Position numbers and translations under genes: made by a program. A DNA stretch of 64,000 nt from Bacilli bacterium (GTDB lineage Bacteria > Bacillota_I > Bacilli_A > RFN20 > CAG-826): assembly GCA_017447165.1 (NCBI GenBank), contig JAFSOD010000004.1, forward strand, positions 179,267 through 243,266. The letters are read 5' to 3'. The notes beneath the pieces are model-generated. The model worked only from the letters and a program-made list of their open reading frames with translations. It ran no database searches and was not told the DNA's origin. Below, piece after piece: positions 24,957 through 30,978 of the stretch (position 1 is the first letter of the stretch; each line of letters opens with the position of its first letter).

Positions 24957-25583
24957 TTAATATTCTTCTTTCTTTTTCTTTTTGGTTTTCGCTATTACTA
25001 ATATTTCGATAGTTTTTGCTCCTTTGCTTCTTAATAAATCGATTGAAGTTAAAAGTGTGCTTCCTGTAGTCATAATGTCATCTACTAACAATATCTTTTT
25101 ACCCTTCATTGATATATTTTCATCTATTTCTAAAACATCATTTATCTTATGTCTTCCAAGTGAAGATTGATCAGACTGTTTATGCGCTGTTTTCTTCTTC
25201 AAAATGGGTAATTCTTTAAGCTTTAAACTCTCAAAAATCGCTTTTACGTGATTAAAACCACGCCGCTCATCATCAATGTGATAAGAAGGTATATAGACGA
25301 TATGATAACCATGATATTTTAACTTCAAAAAAGTTAGATATCGATCTAAGAAAACATCCTTTAATTCATAGTCATAACAACCTTTAAATTTATAGATTAA
25401 TTCCTTTATAAAATCTGTATATTCATAGACGGCTGTCCCTTTTATATTTCCTATTTCGAAAGACACAAATTTAGCCTGTAATTTACTAAAACAATCTCCA
25501 CATAAAATGTTCTTCCTTTTCAATAAGTTATATATGGAATTATCCGTTATTCTTTTAAAGCAAATTTTACAGAAATTATCCAT
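24957..25583 (-). CDS. comFC: competence protein ComFC (phosphoribosyltransferase-like)
   Basis: N-terminal CxxC...CxxC, C-terminal PRTase motif LLVDDIMTTGSTL. It overlaps the end of comFA. Confidence 0.85.
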   Translation of the reverse strand: MDNFCKICFKRITDNSIYNLLKRKNILCGDCFSKLQAKFVSFEIGNIKGTAVYEYTDFIKELIYKFKGCYDYELKDVFLDRYLTFLKLKYHGYHIVYIPSYHIDDERRGFNHVKAIFESLKLKELPILKKKTAHKQSDQSSLGRHKINDVLEIDENISMKGKKILLVDDIMTTGSTLLTSIDLLRSKGAKTIEILVIAKTKKKKKEEY

Positions 25584-26775
25584 TATCTAATGCCTCATTA
25601 TTCTTCTTTATTTCTTCTATAGATTCTTTAATATCGGAAGTCACTTTTTCGCATAGATAAATTACTTCTCCTTCTGGCGCATCAGCCTTTCTTCCCACTC
25701 GTCCTGCGATTTGAATTAAAGTGCCTTTTTCATATATTTTATGGTCAGTTTGACTGATAATTACCTGCAAATTCTTTACAGTTACCCCTCTTTCTAGTAC
25801 TGATGTAGTTACTAAATATGAAAATAAGTGATTACGAAATTCTTCGATTATTTCAGATCTATAATTCCTTTTAGAATGAACATAATTTCCACCTTTAACA
25901 AATAAGGAAATTACTCTATAGATTTTCTCACATAAATTAATGGTGGGAGCAAAAACAAATACAGGTTTGTTATTTTTCTTATATTCCTTTATTTTTCTAA
26001 TTAAATATAAGTATTGAAATAGCGTATTTCGTTTAACTATTTTGGGTATTGGAAGAGGATGACGATGAAAACGAACTTCTAATCTTAATATATCTTTGTT
26101 ATCTCCATGGAAATGATCTATTACTTCTTTAGATGGAGTGGCGGACATCATAACATAATGACCACACAAAGATTGATAGAACATGCTATGTAATGTTGGA
26201 TCATCTTTAAACGGAAAAGCGTCTATCTCATCTAGGATAATTAAAGAGAAATAATTCTTGTATCTATATAGTTGATGTGTGGTTAGGACAACTATATCGC
26301 CTTCTTTATCTTTTGTGTGCCCTCCATATAAGCAAACCACTTTGTTATATTTAAATATTTCTCTTAACCTATTATGTAATTCTATTGCAACATCTCTTCT
26401 AGGGAGCGCAAACGCGACCTTATCGCCACAATTAATTGCATATTTAATAATGTTGAGGCAAATTTCAGTCTTTCCTGATCCACATACAGCAAAAACAAGA
26501 CTATCTATTCCTTTCTTATAGTTCTCCACTAACTTATCGGATAATTCTTTCTGTTCTGGAGATAGCTCGTACTCTAAATGAATAGGTGCTTTCTTGGGAT
26601 AAGATGGCTTATGTTCTACTTCTTCACCACGAAAAGAGATACACCTACGACAATAGGGTTTGCCATTAAGATATCCAATTGAATGTATATCGGTGTTACC
26701 ACAAATAGGGCATTTATAAGTTTCTATGTTGCAACATCTCCTTTCTTTTGATTTAATATTTATACAACCTGTCAC
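25576..26775 (-). CDS. comFA: competence helicase ComFA (zinc finger plus DEAD-box helicase)
   Basis: 4-Cys zinc finger CPICGNTD...CRRC, Walker A AVCGSGKTE, DEID, SAT and helicase C motifs. The annotated start is GTG at 26775. The position that is ATG in the paralogous copies is ATA here (26725-26727). Confidence 0.85.
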   Translation of the reverse strand: MTGCINIKSKERRCCNIETYKCPICGNTDIHSIGYLNGKPYCRRCISFRGEEVEHKPSYPKKAPIHLEYELSPEQKELSDKLVENYKKGIDSLVFAVCGSGKTEICLNIIKYAINCGDKVAFALPRRDVAIELHNRLREIFKYNKVVCLYGGHTKDKEGDIVVLTTHQLYRYKNYFSLIILDEIDAFPFKDDPTLHSMFYQSLCGHYVMMSATPSKEVIDHFHGDNKDILRLEVRFHRHPLPIPKIVKRNTLFQYLYLIRKIKEYKKNNKPVFVFAPTINLCEKIYRVISLFVKGGNYVHSKRNYRSEIIEEFRNHLFSYLVTTSVLERGVTVKNLQVIISQTDHKIYEKGTLIQIAGRVGRKADAPEGEVIYLCEKVTSDIKESIEEIKKNNEALDNG

Positions 26776-26938
26776 GCAGAGCTAAATAGGCTCAGACAGG
26801 TTTTTATTTTAACTTAACAGGTTTTCTTCTTTTTATAATTCTTATTGTCAATCTATCATCAGGGTGTATTTTCATACCAATCAATTCTCTTGATCCAAAA
26901 TGCTTACGTTTACCCTGAACAGGTCTATTGTTCACAAA

Positions 26939-27127
26939 CTAAGCCTTAACTTTATTTTCGGTAGGATGTTTTAGTTTTGTCTGATGTCTATGTTGAGATG
27001 TTCCTGTGATAACAGCAATATAAATGTTCTTTTTATCATTCTTTAAAACAATTAAACCAGGGTGTTTGTTTACTATATAAAATTTTCCTTTTTCTAAATG
27101 TTTGTTATAAATCTTTTTCTTACTCAT
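26939..27127 (-). CDS. small basic protein, family A (short form), cassette 1
   Basis: 62 aa MSKKKIYNKHLEKGKFYIVNKHPGLIVLKNDKKNIYIAVITGTS..., homologous to the 29037-29441 product. SD AGGAGGAAAT precedes it. Confidence 0.5.
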   Translation of the reverse strand: MSKKKIYNKHLEKGKFYIVNKHPGLIVLKNDKKNIYIAVITGTSQHRHQTKLKHPTENKVKA

Positions 27128-27142
27128 ATTTCCTCCTTTCTG

Positions 27143-27424
27143 TTATGTATTTCGTGTTTTTGGGGATCCACATACGGCAAAAACTAAACTATCAATTCCT
27201 TTTTTATAATTCTCTACCAGCCTATCTGATAATTCTTTTTGCTCTGGAGACAACTCATATTCAAGATGAATAGGTGCTTTCTTTGGGTAAGATGGTTTAT
27301 GTTCTACTTCTTCGCCTCGAAAAGAGATGCATCTACGACAATAAGGTTTGCCGTTTAGATAGCCAATAGAATGAATATCAGTGTTGCCACAAACTGGACA
27401 AGTAAATGAAAGCTGGTTATCCAT
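27143..27424 (-). CDS. stand-alone ComFA N-terminal zinc-finger domain paralog (ends at the Walker-A position), cassette 1
   Basis: 93 aa. It is identical to ComFA residues 22-100 or so except K to R, yet its DNA differs at about 15-20% of positions, almost all synonymous. It ends ...AVCGSPKTRNT*. Its ATG overlaps the stop of the upstream small ORF. Confidence 0.6.
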   Translation of the reverse strand: MDNQLSFTCPVCGNTDIHSIGYLNGKPYCRRCISFRGEEVEHKPSYPKKAPIHLEYELSPEQKELSDRLVENYKKGIDSLVFAVCGSPKTRNT

Positions 27425-27821
27425 TTTTCTTGCCTTTCTTTTTATGTTTTGATTTAATACTGGTAGATGGTGTGCGCCCTTTCTGGGTTAAAGCTTCATT
27501 CGTTAGCTTTCCACCATTTTTTCTTTGCTCTTTAATTAGTGAAACATATACATCTATTTTTATTTCATCGGAAACTACTAAACGATACTTTTTAAGTTCT
27601 TGTCCTCTATGTCGGAGTTTATCTTTTCTTATATACTTTCTGAAATAAGATTTCTTGTCTGAATTGGGATTTGGATTTACATCAAATTCTTCATAATTTC
27701 CAGTTACAGTTGGACTATCAGTTATTTCGATATTTTCCCATGTTCCATCTTCTAGAACACTGATTTCTATTGATGGGTGGTATTTAGTTCTTTTGTTTTT
27801 AAATATTTTATATTTATTCAT
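27417..27821 (-). CDS. small basic protein, family B, cassette 2
   Basis: 134 aa. Shares motifs KxHPSIE..., NPNP and RKY(I/L)RKD...RGQ with the 28361-28687 product. Confidence 0.5.
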   Translation of the reverse strand: MNKYKIFKNKRTKYHPSIEISVLEDGTWENIEITDSPTVTGNYEEFDVNPNPNSDKKSYFRKYIRKDKLRHRGQELKKYRLVVSDEIKIDVYVSLIKEQRKNGGKLTNEALTQKGRTPSTSIKSKHKKKGKKNG

Positions 27822-27840
27822 GTATCAATTCCTTTCTATG

Positions 27841-28113
27841 TTATGGATTTGTTGTTTTTGGTGATCCACATACGGCAAAAACAAGACTATCTAAGCCTTT
27901 TTTGTAATTCTCAACTAACTTATCCGATAGTACTTTTTGCTCTGGAAACAGTTCGTACTCTAAATGAATAGGCGCCTTTTTAGGGTATGATGTTTTGTGT
28001 TCCACTTCTTCACCTTTAAAAGAGATACACCTACGGCAATAAAGTTTGCCGTTCAACATACCAATTGAATGAATATCAGTGTTACCACATACAGGACATT
28101 TATAAGGTTCCAT
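27841..28113 (-). CDS. stand-alone ComFA N-terminal zinc-finger domain paralog, cassette 2
   Basis: 90 aa MEPYKCPVCGNTD...CRRC...AVCGSPKTTNP*, about 90% identical to the ComFA N-terminus. It has its own SD AAAGGTGA. Confidence 0.6.
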   Translation of the reverse strand: MEPYKCPVCGNTDIHSIGMLNGKLYCRRCISFKGEEVEHKTSYPKKAPIHLEYELFPEQKVLSDKLVENYKKGLDSLVFAVCGSPKTTNP

Positions 28114-28142
28114 ATTGAATTATCACCTTTCTTTTGATTTAA

Positions 28143-28226
28143 AATAGCCATAGTCGTGGTCATCACTAGTTTGATGCCGGCCCACAGGAAGCTGTGTAGC
28201 TCCATTAACGGGGCTTTTTATTTTTA
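28143..28226. repeat. structured element copy 1 (two hairpins plus GC stem and U-run on the plus strand)
   Basis: GGTCATCActagttTGATGCC, then CACAGgaagCTGTG, then AGCTCCattaacGGGGCT followed by TTTTTATTTTT. It is homologous to 28975-29062 with compensatory changes in the middle stem. Confidence 0.5.
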
Positions 28227-28360
28227 CGGTTTTATAATATTTGCCATATATTGGGCATTTATAAGTTTCTATATTGCGTTACCTCCTTAATTTTGTTTTA
28301 ATATTTGTAGTTAGTGCTATCGGTTAATCCGACCAAAGCCCAAGTTTAGTAGGTTTTACA

Positions 28361-28687
28361 CTAACTTTTTTTGTTGTTTAAATAGTTTTCAATTTCAATT
28401 AAATCATCTTCTGATAGGTTGAATTTTTCCAAAAGTTGACCTCTTGTTTTAATTGGATCCTTTCTTAAATACTTTCTAACATATGCTTTATCATTTCTTT
28501 TTGGATTCGGATTTACTTTAAGCTCAATATATCTGTTCTTCTTAGTGGGGCTTGAAGTTACTTCTAAATTAATCCAAATAGTTCCGTTTGAATCTACTTC
28601 TATGCTTGGATGATTTTTTGTTTTTCTGTTTTTATAGAATTTGAATTTTTTGCTCATTTGACACCTCCTTTTTGTTATGGTTTTCAA
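28361..28687 (-). CDS. small basic protein, family B, cassette 3
   Basis: 108 aa. Same family as the 27417-27821 product. Confidence 0.5.
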   Translation of the reverse strand: MKTITKRRCQMSKKFKFYKNRKTKNHPSIEVDSNGTIWINLEVTSSPTKKNRYIELKVNPNPKRNDKAYVRKYLRKDPIKTRGQLLEKFNLSEDDLIEIENYLNNKKS

Positions 28688-28694
28688 GTCTTTG

Positions 28695-28952
28695 GTGATC
28701 CTTATATCGCATAAACTAAATTATCTATCCCTTTCTTATAGTTCTCCACTAACTTATCCGATAGTTCTTTCTGCTCAGGGGGACAACTCATACGATAAGT
28801 GAATTGGGGCCTTACGATATGAAGGCTTATGTTCCACTGCTTAACCCTTAAAATAGATACATCTTCGGGAGTAATGTTTGCCGTTTAGGTATCCTATTGA
28901 ATGAATACCAATGTTTCCACAAACTGGGCATTTATATGTTTCGATATTGCAT
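28695..28952 (-). pseudogene. degraded comFA 5' copy (zinc-finger fragment with frameshifts), cassette 3
   Basis: Nucleotide homology to comFA codons 1-90 runs through the conserved junction GGTGATCC..., but indels break the reading frame. The ORF track finds no ORF over 60 aa here. Confidence 0.55.
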
Positions 28953-28974
28953 CATCTCCTTAAATTTGATTTAA

Positions 28975-29062
28975 TAATGTCATGGTCGTGGTCATCACAA
29001 GTTTGATGCCGACTCGTAGGTAACTACGCAGCTCCATTAACGGGGCTTTTTTATTTTTTTGC
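28975..29062. repeat. structured element copy 2
   Basis: GGTCATCAcaagttTGATGCC, then CGTAGgtaaCTACG, then AGCTCCattaacGGGGCT followed by a T-run. It overlaps the 3' end of ORF 29037-29441. Confidence 0.5.
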
Positions 29063-29441
29063 GTTTTTTATAATAAGAACCGTAAATAGGATTACCTTTT
29101 TGTACTTTAATAATTAAATACATATCTTGGATGCTAAACGACATATCTGGATATTCTTTTTCTCCGTAATCATTTCTATCTCCTATAAAAGGTCTTTTCT
29201 TTATTAGCGATATTTCAACGTTACTATCGGTTGCATGTTTTAATTTGTAATATCCTTTTCTTAAACCTAGACGATCAAATTCTTCTTTGGTCATTGATCC
29301 AGTGATAATTGCATAGAAAGCTTTATCTTCATTATCAATTTTAAAAATTTGTCCAGGATGTCCACCTGGGCTACCATCTAAAACACGATAAAACTTGCCG
29401 ATTTCAAGTGTTATCTTGTGTTTTCTTTTCTTTTTACTCAT
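29037..29441 (-). CDS. small basic protein, family A (long form), cassette 4
   Basis: 134 aa MSKKKRKHKITLEIGKFYRVLDGSPGGHPGQIFKIDNEDKAFYAIITGS..., with a KOW/SH3-like G-x-x-Y-x-V...G...G-x-I pattern. The lysine-rich C-terminus is encoded by the terminator A-tract. Confidence 0.5.
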   Translation of the reverse strand: MSKKKRKHKITLEIGKFYRVLDGSPGGHPGQIFKIDNEDKAFYAIITGSMTKEEFDRLGLRKGYYKLKHATDSNVEISLIKKRPFIGDRNDYGEKEYPDMSFSIQDMYLIIKVQKGNPIYGSYYKKRKKIKKPR

Positions 29442-29478
29442 ATTTTCCTCCTTTCTTGTTATGTTTTTAGTATCTTTA

Positions 29479-29612
29479 GCGATTCACATACCGCAAAAAT
29501 AATCTATCAATTCCCTTCTTATAGTTCTCCACTAACTTATCTGATAGTTCTTTCTGCTCTGGAGACAGTTCATATGAAAGATGAATAGGTGCTTTCTTAG
29601 AATATGAATGTT
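29479..29612 (-). pseudogene. truncated comFA 5' copy (about 45 codons upstream of the Walker-A position only), cassette 4
   Basis: Homology to comFA covers only the segment ...HLEYELSPEQKELSDKLVENYKKGIDS.. and junction, then is lost. Confidence 0.5.
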
Positions 29613-29894
29613 ACTCTATGAAAAACGAAAACATTTCCTTCTTCATCAACGATATTTGCTGGGTGGTTGTTTTTTAAATAAATTCTGAAGTGCCTCCTGA
29701 AAGAACTATTTTTTGTTTTTGTTTCATTTTTTCTCCTTTATGTTATGTATTTATTTCTTGTAGATCAGGGCGGCCTTTATTTTTTTATAGGTTTTCTCCT
29801 TTTATAATTGATAAAAAACTCCCTACATTATATATAGAGTGGCTTTCTTCATTTTTTTGTGAAAAAAAGTTTAATAAATCTTTATAGGTATTAA

Positions 29895-29914
29895 AAAAAG
29901 GCCTATAGGCCTTT
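29895..29914. terminator. rpiB terminator
   Basis: AAAAAGGCCTATAGGCCTTT palindrome. Confidence 0.7.
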
Positions 29915-29935
29915 ATGTATTAAATATTTTTTAGA

Positions 29936-30373
29936 TTATTTTTCTAAGTCGTTAATCATCTCAACACGAGTTAAGTGTCTACCACCTTCAAATTCAGTGT
30001 TAAGGAAGATATCCACTCTTCTAAGAACATCTTCTAAAGCCATAAATTTTTGACCAAAGGAGATAACGTTTGCGTCATTATGTTGTCTCATTAATCTAGC
30101 AACTTCATCGTTATAGGCAATACCGCATCTAACGCCTTTGATTTTATTAGCCGCAATAGAGATACCCTCTCCACTAGTGCAGACAACAACACCAAATTGA
30201 CATTTTTTAGAAGCTACTTTTCTAGCTACTTCAGCGCCATATAAAGGATAATGGCAACTATCTAAAGAATAAGTACCAACATCAATTACTTCATGTCCTA
30301 ATTCTTTTAAATGTTCTGCGATCGCGTTTTTATATTCTAATCCGCCATGATCACTACCAACTGCAATTTTCAT
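29936..30373 (-). CDS. rpiB: ribose-5-phosphate isomerase B
   Basis: 145 aa. MKIAVGSDHGG, CTSGEGISIAANK, and catalytic Cys region typical of RpiB/LacAB. Confidence 0.9.
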   Translation of the reverse strand: MKIAVGSDHGGLEYKNAIAEHLKELGHEVIDVGTYSLDSCHYPLYGAEVARKVASKKCQFGVVVCTSGEGISIAANKIKGVRCGIAYNDEVARLMRQHNDANVISFGQKFMALEDVLRRVDIFLNTEFEGGRHLTRVEMINDLEK

Positions 30374-30384
30374 ATTGATACCTC

Positions 30385-30978
30385 CTATAAGACTTTCTCA
30401 ATATTTTTTAAAGATATAGGTCCCTCTCTAACAATTTTAACTTGTTCTCCAGTAAGGTCAACTATTGTTGAAGGAACTCCACCTAAAGCAAATCCTTCAA
30501 GTATATAACCTAGTTCATCATTAAATATCTCTTTTACTTCATACGAAGTAAGCGCAGGTTTACATCCACTTTTATTTGCGGAAGGAACTAATAAAGGAGA
30601 ACCCACAAATTGAATTAAGTCTTGAACTAGTTTAATATCAGGAACTCTAATTCCAATTACACCTGTATCATGAGTGACATAAGTAGGAACGTTACCTCTA
30701 CTTTTAAGTAAAACAGTAATTGCTCCAGGCATAAAAGCTTTAATAACTTTTAACTCTCTTTCAGACACATATGCATACTCTTGGATATCATCAACTGAAC
30801 CTAACATTAAAGTATAAGGTTTATCTTCTGGACGTCCTTTAATTTCGTTTAAAAGTTTGTAGGCAGTAAAGTCGTTATAATAAACTCCTAAGCCCATAAC
30901 TGTTTCAGTAGGAAAAGCGATGACTTTAGATTCATCAAGAGCCTTTTTAGCGAGTTCAAATTCCTTAGTTGAGTGCAT
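30385..30978 (-). CDS. tsaC: L-threonylcarbamoyladenylate synthase (YrdC/YwlC-type, short form)
   Basis: 197 aa YrdC fold (PTETVMGLG, KGRPEDKP), in the prfA-prmC-tsaC-rpiB arrangement. Confidence 0.8.
   Translation of the reverse strand: MHSTKEFELAKKALDESKVIAFPTETVMGLGVYYNDFTAYKLLNEIKGRPEDKPYTLMLGSVDDIQEYAYVSERELKVIKAFMPGAITVLLKSRGNVPTYVTHDTGVIGIRVPDIKLVQDLIQFVGSPLLVPSANKSGCKPALTSYEVKEIFNDELGYILEGFALGGVPSTIVDLTGEQVKIVREGPISLKNIEKVL

What the first reader, a model, noticed from the sequence alone, without database searches (positions are those of the whole stretch)
28143..29062. 80-nt structured element at cassette 3' ends with compensatory base-pair changes (possible sRNA, terminator or attC-like site)
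Two copies are present (28143-28226 and 28975-29062). Both share hairpin 1, GGTCATCA...TGATGCC. In hairpin 2, CACAGgaagCTGTG in one copy corresponds to CGTAGgtaaCTACG in the other. Both arms have changed while pairing is preserved, which is covariation. Hairpin 3, AGCUCCauuaacGGGGCU with a U.G wobble, is followed by a U-run on the plus strand. That makes it an intrinsic terminator for plus-strand transcription although all local genes are on the minus strand. Copy 2 overlaps the C-terminus of ORF 29037-29441, whose K-rich tail is encoded by the A-tract.

It could be an antisense or plus-strand small RNA, or a structured recombination site analogous to integron attC.
Basis: seen in the sequence. 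Interest (0 to 1): 0.6.

Follow-up and report, generated by a model that had tools for sequence, protein, structure and literature searches.

The report
Antisense small RNA facing toxin-like gene
The 80-nt element is a conserved, previously undescribed small RNA gene with its own promoter and terminator. It is transcribed opposite to, and overlaps the end of, an unannotated MazF-fold (toxin-like) protein gene in uncultured gut and rumen Bacilli, so it is probably an RNA antitoxin or regulator, not a recombination site.

Summary
There are two copies on the + strand (28150-28225 and 28982-29057), each with three hairpins and a U-run.

The element is not specific to this window. A covariance model finds it directly after, and convergent with, every close homologue of the 134-aa gene 29037-29441 ('X'). 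That gives 26 hits and about 17 distinct variants, in at least five genomic contexts.

P1 and P2 pair in 99-100% of cells, and five pairs show changes on both sides. G·U wobbles fit only the + strand. A sigma-A-like promoter (TTGnnn, 17 nt, TGnTT(T/A)AAT) is conserved upstream in every context.

X has no Pfam family. Its confident AlphaFold model matches MazF/PemK/CcdB toxins best. No protein antitoxin or upstream repeat array is present.

Best reading: an approximately 72-nt cis-antisense sRNA paired with a MazF-fold toxin-like gene. This resembles 3'-overlapping type I toxin-antitoxin pairs such as bsrG/SR4, but the toxin fold is one known from type II and III systems. Transcription, toxicity and neutralisation are all inferred.

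The attC-like reading is not supported. The window array is a pile-up of such modules with displaced comFA 5' fragments. Copy 1 is an orphan sRNA that has lost its toxin-like gene.

The parts
28947..28975 (+). Promoter-like site of sRNA-A copy 2. It reads -35 TTGCAT, a 17-nt spacer, then TGA TTTAAT. It overlaps the SD/start region of the comFA-N' pseudogene on the other strand.
   Evidence: The pattern TTG-N17-TGNTTWAAH has 5 matches in 64 kb, all on the + strand and all in this array, against 1.03 expected. The same architecture occurs in non-comFA contexts L011, L026, L032, L035, L031, L033 and L034.
28982..29057 (+). sRNA-A copy 2 (P1 about 28984-29014, P2 29015-29028, P3 terminator 29030-29047, then the U-run). 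It is convergent with X and overlaps X's last ~7 codons (21 nt, 29037-29057), with X's stop codon in the P3 loop.
   Evidence: CM hit of 97.3 bits, E 3e-26. Fold z-score -2.9. Terminator scan.
29037..29441 (-). Gene X (type A), 134 aa. It is basic and has a MazF/PemK/CcdB-like predicted fold, so it is the putative toxin partner.
   Evidence: 129 homologues, no annotation. 57 clusters at 50% identity among 1.84e9 proteins. AF2 pLDDT 93.1. The best full-length Foldseek matches are MazF and CcdB and phage PemK/MazF endoribonucleases.
28115..28143 (+). Promoter-like site of sRNA-A copy 1 (TTGAAT, 17 nt, TGA TTTAAA). Its -35 abuts the ATG (28111-28113) of the comFA-N' ORF on the minus strand.
28150..28225 (+). 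sRNA-A copy 1 (P1 28153-28182, P2 28183-28196, P3 28198-28215, then the U-run). This is an orphan copy: only the last ~13 codons of X remain next to it.
   Evidence: CM hit of 93.6 bits. Fold. Terminator scan.
28227..28273 (-). Recombination stub. A comFA start (SD + IETYKCPI) is fused to the X tail (YGKYYK...) through the CPICG/NPIYG microhomology.
   Evidence: Read from the sequence and compared with the X tails in alignment A2.
26729..26810 (+). Same promoter type followed by a different hairpin plus U-run ('sRNA-D', 26764-26810). It faces the X-like pseudogene 26804-27127 and sits just upstream of the resident comFA.
   Evidence: z -5.05. The same CACGCAGAGCTAAATAGGCTCAG core occurs in L017 and L023.
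27430..27523 (+). Same promoter type plus a three-way hairpin and U-run, lying inside the 3' coding end of the type B gene 27417-27821.
   Evidence: Conserved in L042 and L044.
28274..28372 (+). Same promoter type plus a long hairpin and U-run ('sRNA-B'). It overlaps the stop codon of the type B gene 28361-28687.
   Evidence: The same RNA occurs in L038 and L039.

Best explanation
The element is a self-contained gene for an approximately 72-nt small RNA on the window's + strand, antisense to all local genes.

The proposed mechanism runs as follows. A sigma-A-type promoter (-35 TTGnnn, 17-nt spacer, TG-extended TT(T/A)AAT) fires about 6-8 nt upstream of P1. The transcript folds into three hairpins: a long bulged P1, a 5-bp P2, and the P3 terminator. 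It ends in the U-run. The RNA is convergent with gene X, a 134-aa basic protein with a MazF/PemK/CcdB-like fold. It is perfectly complementary to the last ~7 codons (copy 2) and the 3' untranslated region of X mRNA. I propose it acts as a cis-antisense repressor or antitoxin of X, in the manner of 3'-overlapping type I toxin-antitoxin pairs in Firmicutes such as bsrG/SR4 and txpA/RatA. In that model, a loop-loop contact leads to duplex formation, then RNase III-type cleavage and/or a block to translation.

Shown here:
- the conserved structure with covariation;
- the strand on which it pairs;
- the promoter and terminator motifs;
- strict co-occurrence with X in several genomic contexts;
- the fold of X;
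- the absence of a protein antitoxin gene or a repeat array.

Inferred, not shown:
- that the RNA is transcribed;
- that X is toxic;
- that the RNA neutralises X, and by which route.

Where the module sits next to comFA, the sRNA promoter overlaps comFA's SD and start codon. It may therefore also affect comFA expression.
For: 1. The structure is conserved. 16 distinct variants pair in 98.9% of P1 cells and 100% of P2 cells. Five pairs change on both sides, against 1.4 in shuffles (1 of 500 shuffles reaches this). Sliding the partners drops pairing to 30-42%. All 18 variants fold on their own into the same three hairpins.

2. The structure belongs to the + strand. Intermediates such as A-U > G·U > G-C in P1, G·U in P2 and U·G in P3 are wobbles on the + strand and C×A mismatches on the gene strand. 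16 of 18 variants are more stable on the + strand, by 3.8 kcal/mol on average.

3. A promoter is conserved. TTG-N17-TGNTTWAAH precedes every copy, including those in contexts unrelated to comFA. All 5 window matches lie in this array on the + strand, with 1.03 expected. A terminator is scored in both copies.

4. The element is linked to X. All 26 strong CM hits (46-102 bits) lie directly 3' of, and convergent with, an X homologue or X remnant. The contexts include rpiB-X-comFA, Metallophos/epimerase, Big_2/Na-Pi cotransporter and Rce1-like. More distant X relatives (33-43% identity) carry different convergent promoter-hairpin-terminator units.

5. X looks toxin-like. The AF2 model has pLDDT 93.1. 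The only full-length structural matches are MazF, MazF-mt3, MazF-mt9 and CcdB (TM 0.45-0.58, probability 0.87-1.0), and phage 'PemK/MazF toxin' or 'endoribonuclease' models (E 4e-4 to 5e-3). One family member touches Pfam PemK_toxin at E 0.01.

6. There is a precedent. [quoted passage not shown]
Against: - No expression data exist, so transcription of the + strand is inferred from motifs.
- The -10-like hexamer TT(T/A)AAT lacks the usual A at position 2. The generic promoter scan did not call it.
- Type I toxins are normally small hydrophobic peptides (PMC6563280), and X is a soluble 134-aa protein.
- The structural match to MazF is moderate (TM about 0.5). hhalign against B. subtilis MazF was not significant. 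The catalytic Arg of MazF is replaced by an invariant His.
- A purely cis-antisense mechanism does not explain why the P1 sequence (86-87% identity) is better conserved than the X coding sequence (71-74%). That hints at a trans partner, either a protein or another RNA.
- X is a syntenic neighbour of comFA in many genomes and was not found on plasmids or phages. It may therefore be a housekeeping or competence protein rather than a toxin.
Confidence: 0.55

Rival explanations
1. Type III-like mechanism. The same + strand sRNA neutralises X by binding the protein directly, as ToxI binds ToxN, rather than by pairing with X mRNA.
For: X has the MazF/Kid/CcdB-type fold that type III toxins also share (PMC5086642). 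The P1 sequence is more conserved than the X coding sequence, which a perfectly complementary cis pair does not need but a protein-RNA interface would. X has Lys/Arg-rich N- and C-terminal tails. No conserved pairing was found between the sRNA and the X 5' region.
Against: The defining type III layout is absent. That layout is tandem antitoxin repeats, then a terminator, then the toxin, all on one strand and driven by one promoter. No tandem repeats occur upstream of X, and the RNA is a single unit on the opposite strand. Binding cannot be tested here.
Confidence: 0.17
2. The convergent promoter-hairpin-terminator unit mainly controls the comF operon. It would act by transcriptional interference or promoter occlusion at the comFA SD and start codon, or as a roadblock to read-through from X. 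X would then be incidental.
For: In comFA contexts the -35 abuts the comFA start codon and the -10 lies just upstream of its SD. Units with different RNA bodies (A, B, D, and the one inside type B) all place this promoter at a comFA or comFA-N' start.
Against: The same sRNA and promoter follow X where there is no comFA at all: L011-13, L026, L032, L035-37. The RNA body would not need three conserved, covarying hairpins for interference alone.
Confidence: 0.12
3. The structure acts on the gene-sense strand, as a 3'-UTR or intergenic processing or stabiliser element of the X-comFA mRNA. Alternatively it acts as folded DNA, an attC-like or other recombination site that builds the cassette array.
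For: The element lies at the 3' end of a gene in a repeated cassette array. The hairpins are inverted repeats, so they can form on either strand. One array junction (28227-28240) lies a few nt from copy 1.
Against: Wobble pairs become C×A mismatches on the sense strand, and 16 of 18 variants are less stable there. No U-run follows the hairpins on the sense strand. No integrase lies within ±10 kb. The loop 'core-like' sequence is not conserved. The element is single-copy at a syntenic site in most relatives. The nearby junction is explained by CPICG/NPIYG microhomology, not by the element.
Confidence: 0.05
4. It is a leaderless mRNA for a small hydrophobic peptide (MVVVITSLMP...) starting at the 5'-terminal AUG. 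On this reading the small gene, not X, would be the type I-style toxin.
For: 11 of 16 variants begin AUGGUCGUGGUCAUC..., right where the transcript is predicted to start.
Against: The AUG is ATA in three variants and ACG in two. One-nucleotide indels in the P1 loop break the reading frame (L017, L024). The stop position varies from 13 codons to none before the terminator. P2 changes are compensatory for pairing rather than conservative for coding.
Confidence: 0.03

Closest known systems
3'-overlapping type I toxin-antitoxin pairs of Firmicutes (bsrG/SR4, txpA/RatA, yonT/SR6)
   Same: A protein gene and a small structured RNA gene are transcribed convergently and overlap at their 3' ends. The RNA consists of several independent stem-loops ending in its terminator. 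There is no protein antitoxin. The modules occur in variable chromosomal spots (PMC3834814, PMC3531473, PMC6563280).
   Different: Known type I toxins are hydrophobic peptides under 60 aa, whereas X is a soluble, basic 134-aa protein with a MazF/CcdB-like fold. The sRNA here is shorter (about 72 nt against 180-220 nt). Neither toxicity nor pairing has been tested.
Type III toxin-antitoxin systems (ToxIN, CptIN, TenpIN, AbiQ)
   Same: A toxin of the MazF/Kid/CcdB structural class is controlled by a small structured RNA instead of a protein antitoxin (PMC5086642).
   Different: Type III antitoxins are tandem repeats upstream of the toxin on the same strand, separated from it by a terminator, and are processed by the toxin. 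Here the RNA is a single unit on the opposite strand, downstream, with its own promoter.
Type II MazEF/PemIK and the antisense RNA aMEF of mazEF (PMC8749433)
   Same: A MazF-fold protein, and in the aMEF case an antisense RNA that modulates the locus.
   Different: No MazE/PemI-like gene accompanies X in any context. X lacks the catalytic Arg of MazF, having an invariant His-Pro instead. It does not reach Pfam PemK_toxin significance.
Integron attC sites
   Same: An imperfect hairpin with bulged bases at the 3' end of genes in a tandem cassette array.
   Different: No IntI or attI is present, there are no conserved R''/R' core sites, the element has its own promoter and terminator, and it is single-copy and syntenic in relatives.

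Membership tests
Type I toxin-antitoxin system | An antitoxin RNA is transcribed from its own promoter, antisense to and overlapping the toxin mRNA. | tested here: inconclusive
   The promoter motif, strand-specific structure, terminator and overlap with the X 3' end (21 nt in copy 2) are all present and conserved. Transcription itself cannot be shown with these tools.
Type I toxin-antitoxin system | The toxin is a small (usually under 60 aa) hydrophobic, membrane-active peptide. | tested here: not met
   X is 134 aa, Lys/Arg-rich and predicted to be globular with a beta-barrel plus helices. Rare non-membrane type I toxins such as SymE are known (from my own knowledge).
Type I toxin-antitoxin system | The toxin is growth-inhibitory and the RNA represses its synthesis. 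| not testable with these tools
   This needs expression and neutralisation experiments.
Type III toxin-antitoxin system | Tandem direct repeats encode the antitoxin upstream of the toxin on the same strand, followed by a Rho-independent terminator (PMC5086642). | tested here: not met
   TRF finds no repeat array near X in the window or in L011. The RNA is a single unit, downstream and on the opposite strand.
Type III toxin-antitoxin system | The toxin is an endoribonuclease with a ToxN/MazF/Kid-like fold. | tested here: inconclusive
   A MazF/CcdB-like fold is supported. ToxN-type chains were not among the listed top matches, and activity is untested.
MazF/PemK toxin family (Pfam PF02452), for protein X | A significant sequence match to the family profile. 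| tested here: not met
   X has no Pfam hit. One of 33 relatives matches at E 0.01, below threshold. hhalign against B. subtilis MazF gives probability 0.6%.
MazF/PemK toxin family (Pfam PF02452), for protein X | An SH3-like barrel plus C-terminal helix fold shared by MazF, Kid and CcdB. | tested here: met
   Foldseek against PDB: 9g2g_B, 9ikd_B, 5xe3_B, 5hk0_B, 6a6x_B, 5ck9_B and 7epg over 106-116 columns, with TM 0.39-0.58. Against BFVD: PemK/MazF and endoribonuclease models at probability 1.0.
Integron attC site | Association with an integron integrase and attI, in an array of promoterless cassettes. | tested here: not met
   The genes within ±10 kb are housekeeping genes (uvrB, prfB, secA, comFC/FA, rpiB, tsaC, prmC, prfA, dnaX, recR, tmk) and include no recombinase.
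Integron attC site | Conserved inverse core sites (RYYYAAC ... GTTRRRY) flanking an imperfect palindrome. | tested here: not met
   The ATTAAC/GTTAAT loop is the only resemblance. It is replaced by GTATATT, TATTTA, TTATTAC and others in other variants.
Rho-independent (intrinsic) terminator | A GC-rich hairpin directly followed by a U-run on the transcribed strand. | tested here: met
   P3 has 6 bp, 4 of them G-C, followed by T5-7 on the + strand in both copies. The stem sequence varies while pairing is kept across variants. No U-run follows on the minus strand.
Any Rfam 15 family | A covariance-model match. | tested here: not met
   There is no hit at gathering score in the window. Nothing overlaps the element at E ≤ 10 in 26000-30500.

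The most novel reading that the evidence does not exclude
X, the type B gene and the type C gene, each with its convergent sRNA, could form an undescribed class of RNA-controlled toxin modules. These would combine a MazF-fold toxin with a type I-style cis-antisense antitoxin, possibly one that also binds the protein. The antitoxin promoter is physically interlocked with the start codon of the competence helicase gene comFA. On this reading the modules behave as addictive cassettes. They are swapped between lineages by recombination in comFA and pile up with displaced comFA 5' ends, which would tie a selfish element to the DNA-uptake machinery.
Probability: 0.2. Interest if true: 0.8.

Novelty: new variant of a known kind. 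Interest (0 to 1): 0.62.

Why it matters
RNA antitoxins are known for small membrane peptides (type I) and for ToxN-like nucleases with repeat RNAs (type III). A convergent single-unit antisense sRNA paired with a MazF-fold protein would bridge these classes. It would also show that the MazF/CcdB fold has been placed under RNA control more than once.

Neither the RNA family nor the protein family is in Rfam or Pfam. Both are confined to uncultured rumen and gut Bacilli, so they would be missed by standard annotation.

The interlock with the comFA start, and the stacks of displaced comFA 5' ends with dS above 1, suggest repeated replacement of this locus from other lineages next to a competence gene. 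That is a tractable case for studying how small selfish modules spread by transformation.

Tried and rejected
- Rfam, at gathering score and at E ≤ 10: no family covers the element.
- DNA megablast of the array against phage genomes, and X protein against plasmids and phages: no match.
- Pfam, NCBIfam, PHROGs and PADLOC on all cassette proteins: nothing significant.
- PDB sequence profile search with the X alignment: nothing.
- First AF2 run with a shallow alignment: pLDDT 50.8, unusable. It was rescued by adding distant relatives.
- hhalign of the X family against the type B family: it aligns the shared His-Pro motif over 73 columns but at probability 0.5%, so homology of types A and B is not shown. 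BLASTP of A against B: nothing.
- RNAduplex of the sRNA against the X 5' UTR and start region in 12 loci: z about 0, so there is no conserved trans site.
- Leaderless-peptide reading: rejected, because the start codon and reading frame are not conserved.
- attC reading: rejected (see the membership test).
- My early guess that 29600-29700 is a decayed comFA fragment was wrong. It is a fragment of a third small-protein type.

Full report
**What is in the window**

The window is a chromosomal stretch from an uncultured low-GC Bacilli/Erysipelotrichaceae-type bacterium. The same contig occurs in rumen and gut metagenome assemblies, and the nearest genome records are MAGs labelled Bacillales or Erysipelotrichaceae.

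On the minus strand the gene order is uvrB, prfB, secA, comFC, comFA (25576-26775), rpiB (29936-30373), tsaC, prmC, prfA.

Between comFA and rpiB lies a 3-kb array. It holds five partial or complete copies of the first ~270 nt of comFA, which encode the Zn-ribbon up to the Walker A motif. These alternate with small Lys-rich genes of two kinds:
- Type A: 29037-29441, 134 aa, called X here; and a distant relative at 26804-27127 that carries an in-frame TAG.
- Type B: 27417-27821 and 28361-28687.

The reported element occurs twice, at 28150-28225 and 28982-29057 on the + strand. In each case it lies between a type A 3' end and the next comFA-type start.

**Checking the observation**

Both conserved cores occur exactly twice in 64 kb, with none expected by chance. 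The two copies are 88% identical. P3 plus the U-run is called as a + strand terminator in both copies. The CACAG/CUGUG versus CGUAG/CUACG difference is a true double compensatory change. With only two sequences, however, it could not establish function.

**Related sequences**

X has 129 homologues at 60-96% identity. All come from metagenomes or MAGs and none is annotated. I fetched their contigs and scanned the genome and metagenome collections with an X alignment.

In most relatives the order is rpiB - X - comFA - comFC - secA, with a single X (L007-10, L014, L038, L040). The element sits between X and comFA there too.

X also occurs in unrelated neighbourhoods: Metallophos/epimerase (L011-13), Big_2/Na-Pi cotransporter (L035-36), Rce1-like (L037), and others (L026, L032). 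The element follows it in each of these. The element therefore travels with X, not with comFA.

A covariance model built from 16 distinct variants gives 26 hits of 46-102 bits. Each hit is directly 3' of, and convergent with, an X gene or X remnant. It finds nothing else of note in 203 kb.

**Structure and strand**

On the 16-variant alignment:
- P1 pairs in 98.9% of cells and P2 in 100%.
- Five pairs change on both sides, against 1.4 in column shuffles (1 of 500 shuffles reaches this).
- Sliding the 3' partners drops pairing to 30-42%.

The sequences are related and rather similar, so the number of independent events is small. The changes nevertheless follow the classic route through wobble intermediates. 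Examples are P1 A-U > G·U (four variants) > G-C (L014), and P2 A-U > G·U (L028, L037) > G-C.

These wobbles, and the U·G in P3 seen in 10 of 16 variants, are legitimate pairs only on the window's + strand. On the gene-sense strand they become C×A mismatches.

All 18 variants, including a 43%-identity relative's RNA from L031, fold by energy alone into the same three hairpins. 16 of 18 are more stable on the + strand, by a mean of 3.8 kcal/mol. P3 stems differ widely in sequence (AGCUCC/GGGGCU, ACCCCU/AGGGGU, GUCCCU/AGGGAC, AACCCC/GGGGUU) but are always followed by a U-run.

**Promoter**

Upstream of every copy, on the same strand, the layout is TTGnnn, 17 nt, TGn, TT(T/A)AAT, about 6-8 nt, then P1.

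In comFA contexts this stretch overlaps the comFA SD and start codon, so conservation there could have another cause. The TTG and the TG-extended hexamer persist at the same spacing, however, where no comFA is present: L011 TTGCTA, L026 TTGCTA, L032 TTGCCA, L035 TTGATT, L031 TTGACT, L033 TTGCAA, L034 TTGTTT.

In the whole window the pattern occurs five times. All five are on the + strand and inside the array, against 1.03 expected.

One caveat applies. The hexamer has T rather than A at position 2, and the generic scan did not call it. A register shifted by 2 nt (TAATAT/AAATAT with a 19-nt spacer) is an alternative.

A 5'-terminal AUG in most variants raised the idea of a leaderless peptide. 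The AUG and the reading frame are not conserved, so I reject that idea.

**The partner protein**

- X has no Pfam, NCBIfam, PHROG or PADLOC match.
- An exhaustive HMMER search finds only 57 clusters at 50% identity among 1.84 billion proteins.
- With those distant relatives added to the alignment, AlphaFold2 gives pLDDT 93.1.
- The only full-length structural matches in the PDB are MazF proteins and CcdB.
- In BFVD the top five matches are phage 'PemK/MazF family toxin', 'PemK-like protein' and 'endoribonuclease' models.
- The invariant residues Y18, H28, P29, D91 and G93 include a GHP motif. By my reading of the secondary-structure order (an inference), it sits where MazF has its catalytic Arg-Pro.

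X is therefore a MazF/CcdB-fold protein of unknown activity. No MazE-like gene accompanies it in any context, and no tandem repeats lie upstream of it.

**Mechanism**

The anatomy matches 3'-overlapping type I toxin-antitoxin pairs of Firmicutes. In bsrG/SR4 the two RNAs pair at their 3' ends, starting from the antitoxin's terminator loop, and the duplex triggers decay and blocks translation (PMC3834814; PMC3531473). I therefore rank 'cis-antisense sRNA repressor or antitoxin of a MazF-fold toxin-like gene' first, at 0.55.

Two facts keep a type III-like, protein-binding mode alive, at 0.17. First, type III toxins share this fold (PMC5086642). Second, the P1 sequence is more conserved (86-87%) than the X coding sequence (71-74%), which cis pairing alone does not require.

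I found no conserved pairing between the sRNA and the X 5' region.

A role limited to interference with comFA expression is possible where the two genes abut. It cannot explain the non-comFA loci.

**The wider pattern**

The same promoter type heads four other kinds of + strand hairpin-terminator units:
- Type D upstream of the resident comFA (26729-26810). It faces the X-like pseudogene and is shared with L017 and L023.
- One inside the 3' coding end of type B genes (27430-27523), conserved in L042 and L044.
- Type B overlapping the stop of the second type B gene (28274-28372), also present in L038 and L039.
- One inside the 3' end of a third protein type in L011, L016 and L022.

A further unit (GAUGAUU...GAAUCAUC-U run) lies in tandem behind sRNA-A in L011, L031, L033 and L035.

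'Small basic protein gene faced by a convergent sRNA gene' is therefore a recurring design in these bacteria.

Copy 1 in the window is an orphan. Only the last ~13 codons of X remain. They are joined to a comFA start stub through the CPICG/NPIYG microhomology (28227-28273).

**Why it is not attC-like**

- No recombinase lies within 10 kb on either side.
- There are no conserved core sites.
- The element has its own promoter and terminator.
- It is single-copy and syntenic in most relatives.
- The array units contain the element rather than being bounded by it.

**Verdict**

The plus-strand sRNA reading is supported and the attC reading is rejected.

The RNA and protein families are unannotated. 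The pairing of a MazF-fold protein with a convergent single-unit antisense sRNA is a new variant of known toxin-antitoxin designs, if function is confirmed.

Transcription, toxicity and neutralisation all remain to be shown.

Noticed in passing
window 26468-26727, 27143-27424, 27841-28113 (also 28673-28950 and 29494-29607): The comFA 5' fragments stacked upstream of comFA are 90-97% identical in protein but only 81-84% identical in DNA. dN/dS is 0.013-0.055 with dS 1.3-1.7. They are therefore not recent local duplications. They look like comFA 5' ends imported from diverged lineages, or else they are themselves under selection. Two are intact ORFs of 90 and 93 aa with SD sequences. Similar stacks occur in L015-17, L020, L022 and L023.
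   Followed up: partly
window 26725-26727 (minus strand); L015, L016, L020, L027, L028: At the position where some copies and relatives have the comFA ATG, the resident comFA and several relatives have ATA (ATC in one pseudogene copy). A good SD lies 10 nt upstream and there is no other in-frame canonical start nearby. The ORF finder falls back on GTG at 26775. This may be a conserved non-canonical ATA start.
   Followed up: no
window 26804-27127 (minus strand): An X-family gene of a distant subfamily (like P0139 and P0144) is interrupted by an in-frame TAG at 26936-26938. It is probably a pseudogene. It is faced by its own, different antisense hairpin-terminator (26764-26810, fold z -5.05).
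   Followed up: partly
window 27417-27821 and 28361-28687; L042-L046: Type B small basic proteins have 111 unannotated homologues. In other genomes they occupy the same slot (rpiB - B - comFA), with the stop codon overlapping the comFA start. A conserved + strand promoter, three-way hairpin and U-run lies inside their 3' coding end (27430-27523). Homology to X is suggested by a shared F/Y...HP...I/V motif but is not significant (hhalign probability 0.5%).
   Followed up: partly
window 29640-29700; L011 1695-2096; L016; L022: A fragment (HPANIVDEEGNVFVFHRVT) of a third small basic protein type is fused to a comFA fragment near rpiB. The full-length gene in L011, L016 and L022 also has a convergent promoter, hairpin and U-run inside its 3' end.
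   Followed up: partly
L005 1-2865 versus window 29690-29770: In one metagenome contig the same X gene and array are joined, at 'acaaaaacaaaaaatag', to a DnaB_2-domain gene and murC instead of to rpiB. This is either a strain rearrangement or an assembly chimera. In the window, the corresponding site holds a 17-codon mini-ORF (MKQKQKIVLSGGTSEFI).
   Followed up: no
L011 6490-6600, L031, L033, L035 2990-3090, L011 1620-1700: Another conserved antisense-oriented RNA unit has the outer stem GAUGAUU...GAAUCAUC, two covarying inner hairpins and a U-run. It lies in tandem just behind sRNA-A or the type C antisense promoter. Its function is unknown.
   Followed up: no
L032 2501-2696: An intact sRNA-A lies next to a badly truncated X (only residues 14-50 are recognisable). 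Like window copy 1, this is an sRNA that has outlived its protein partner.
   Followed up: no
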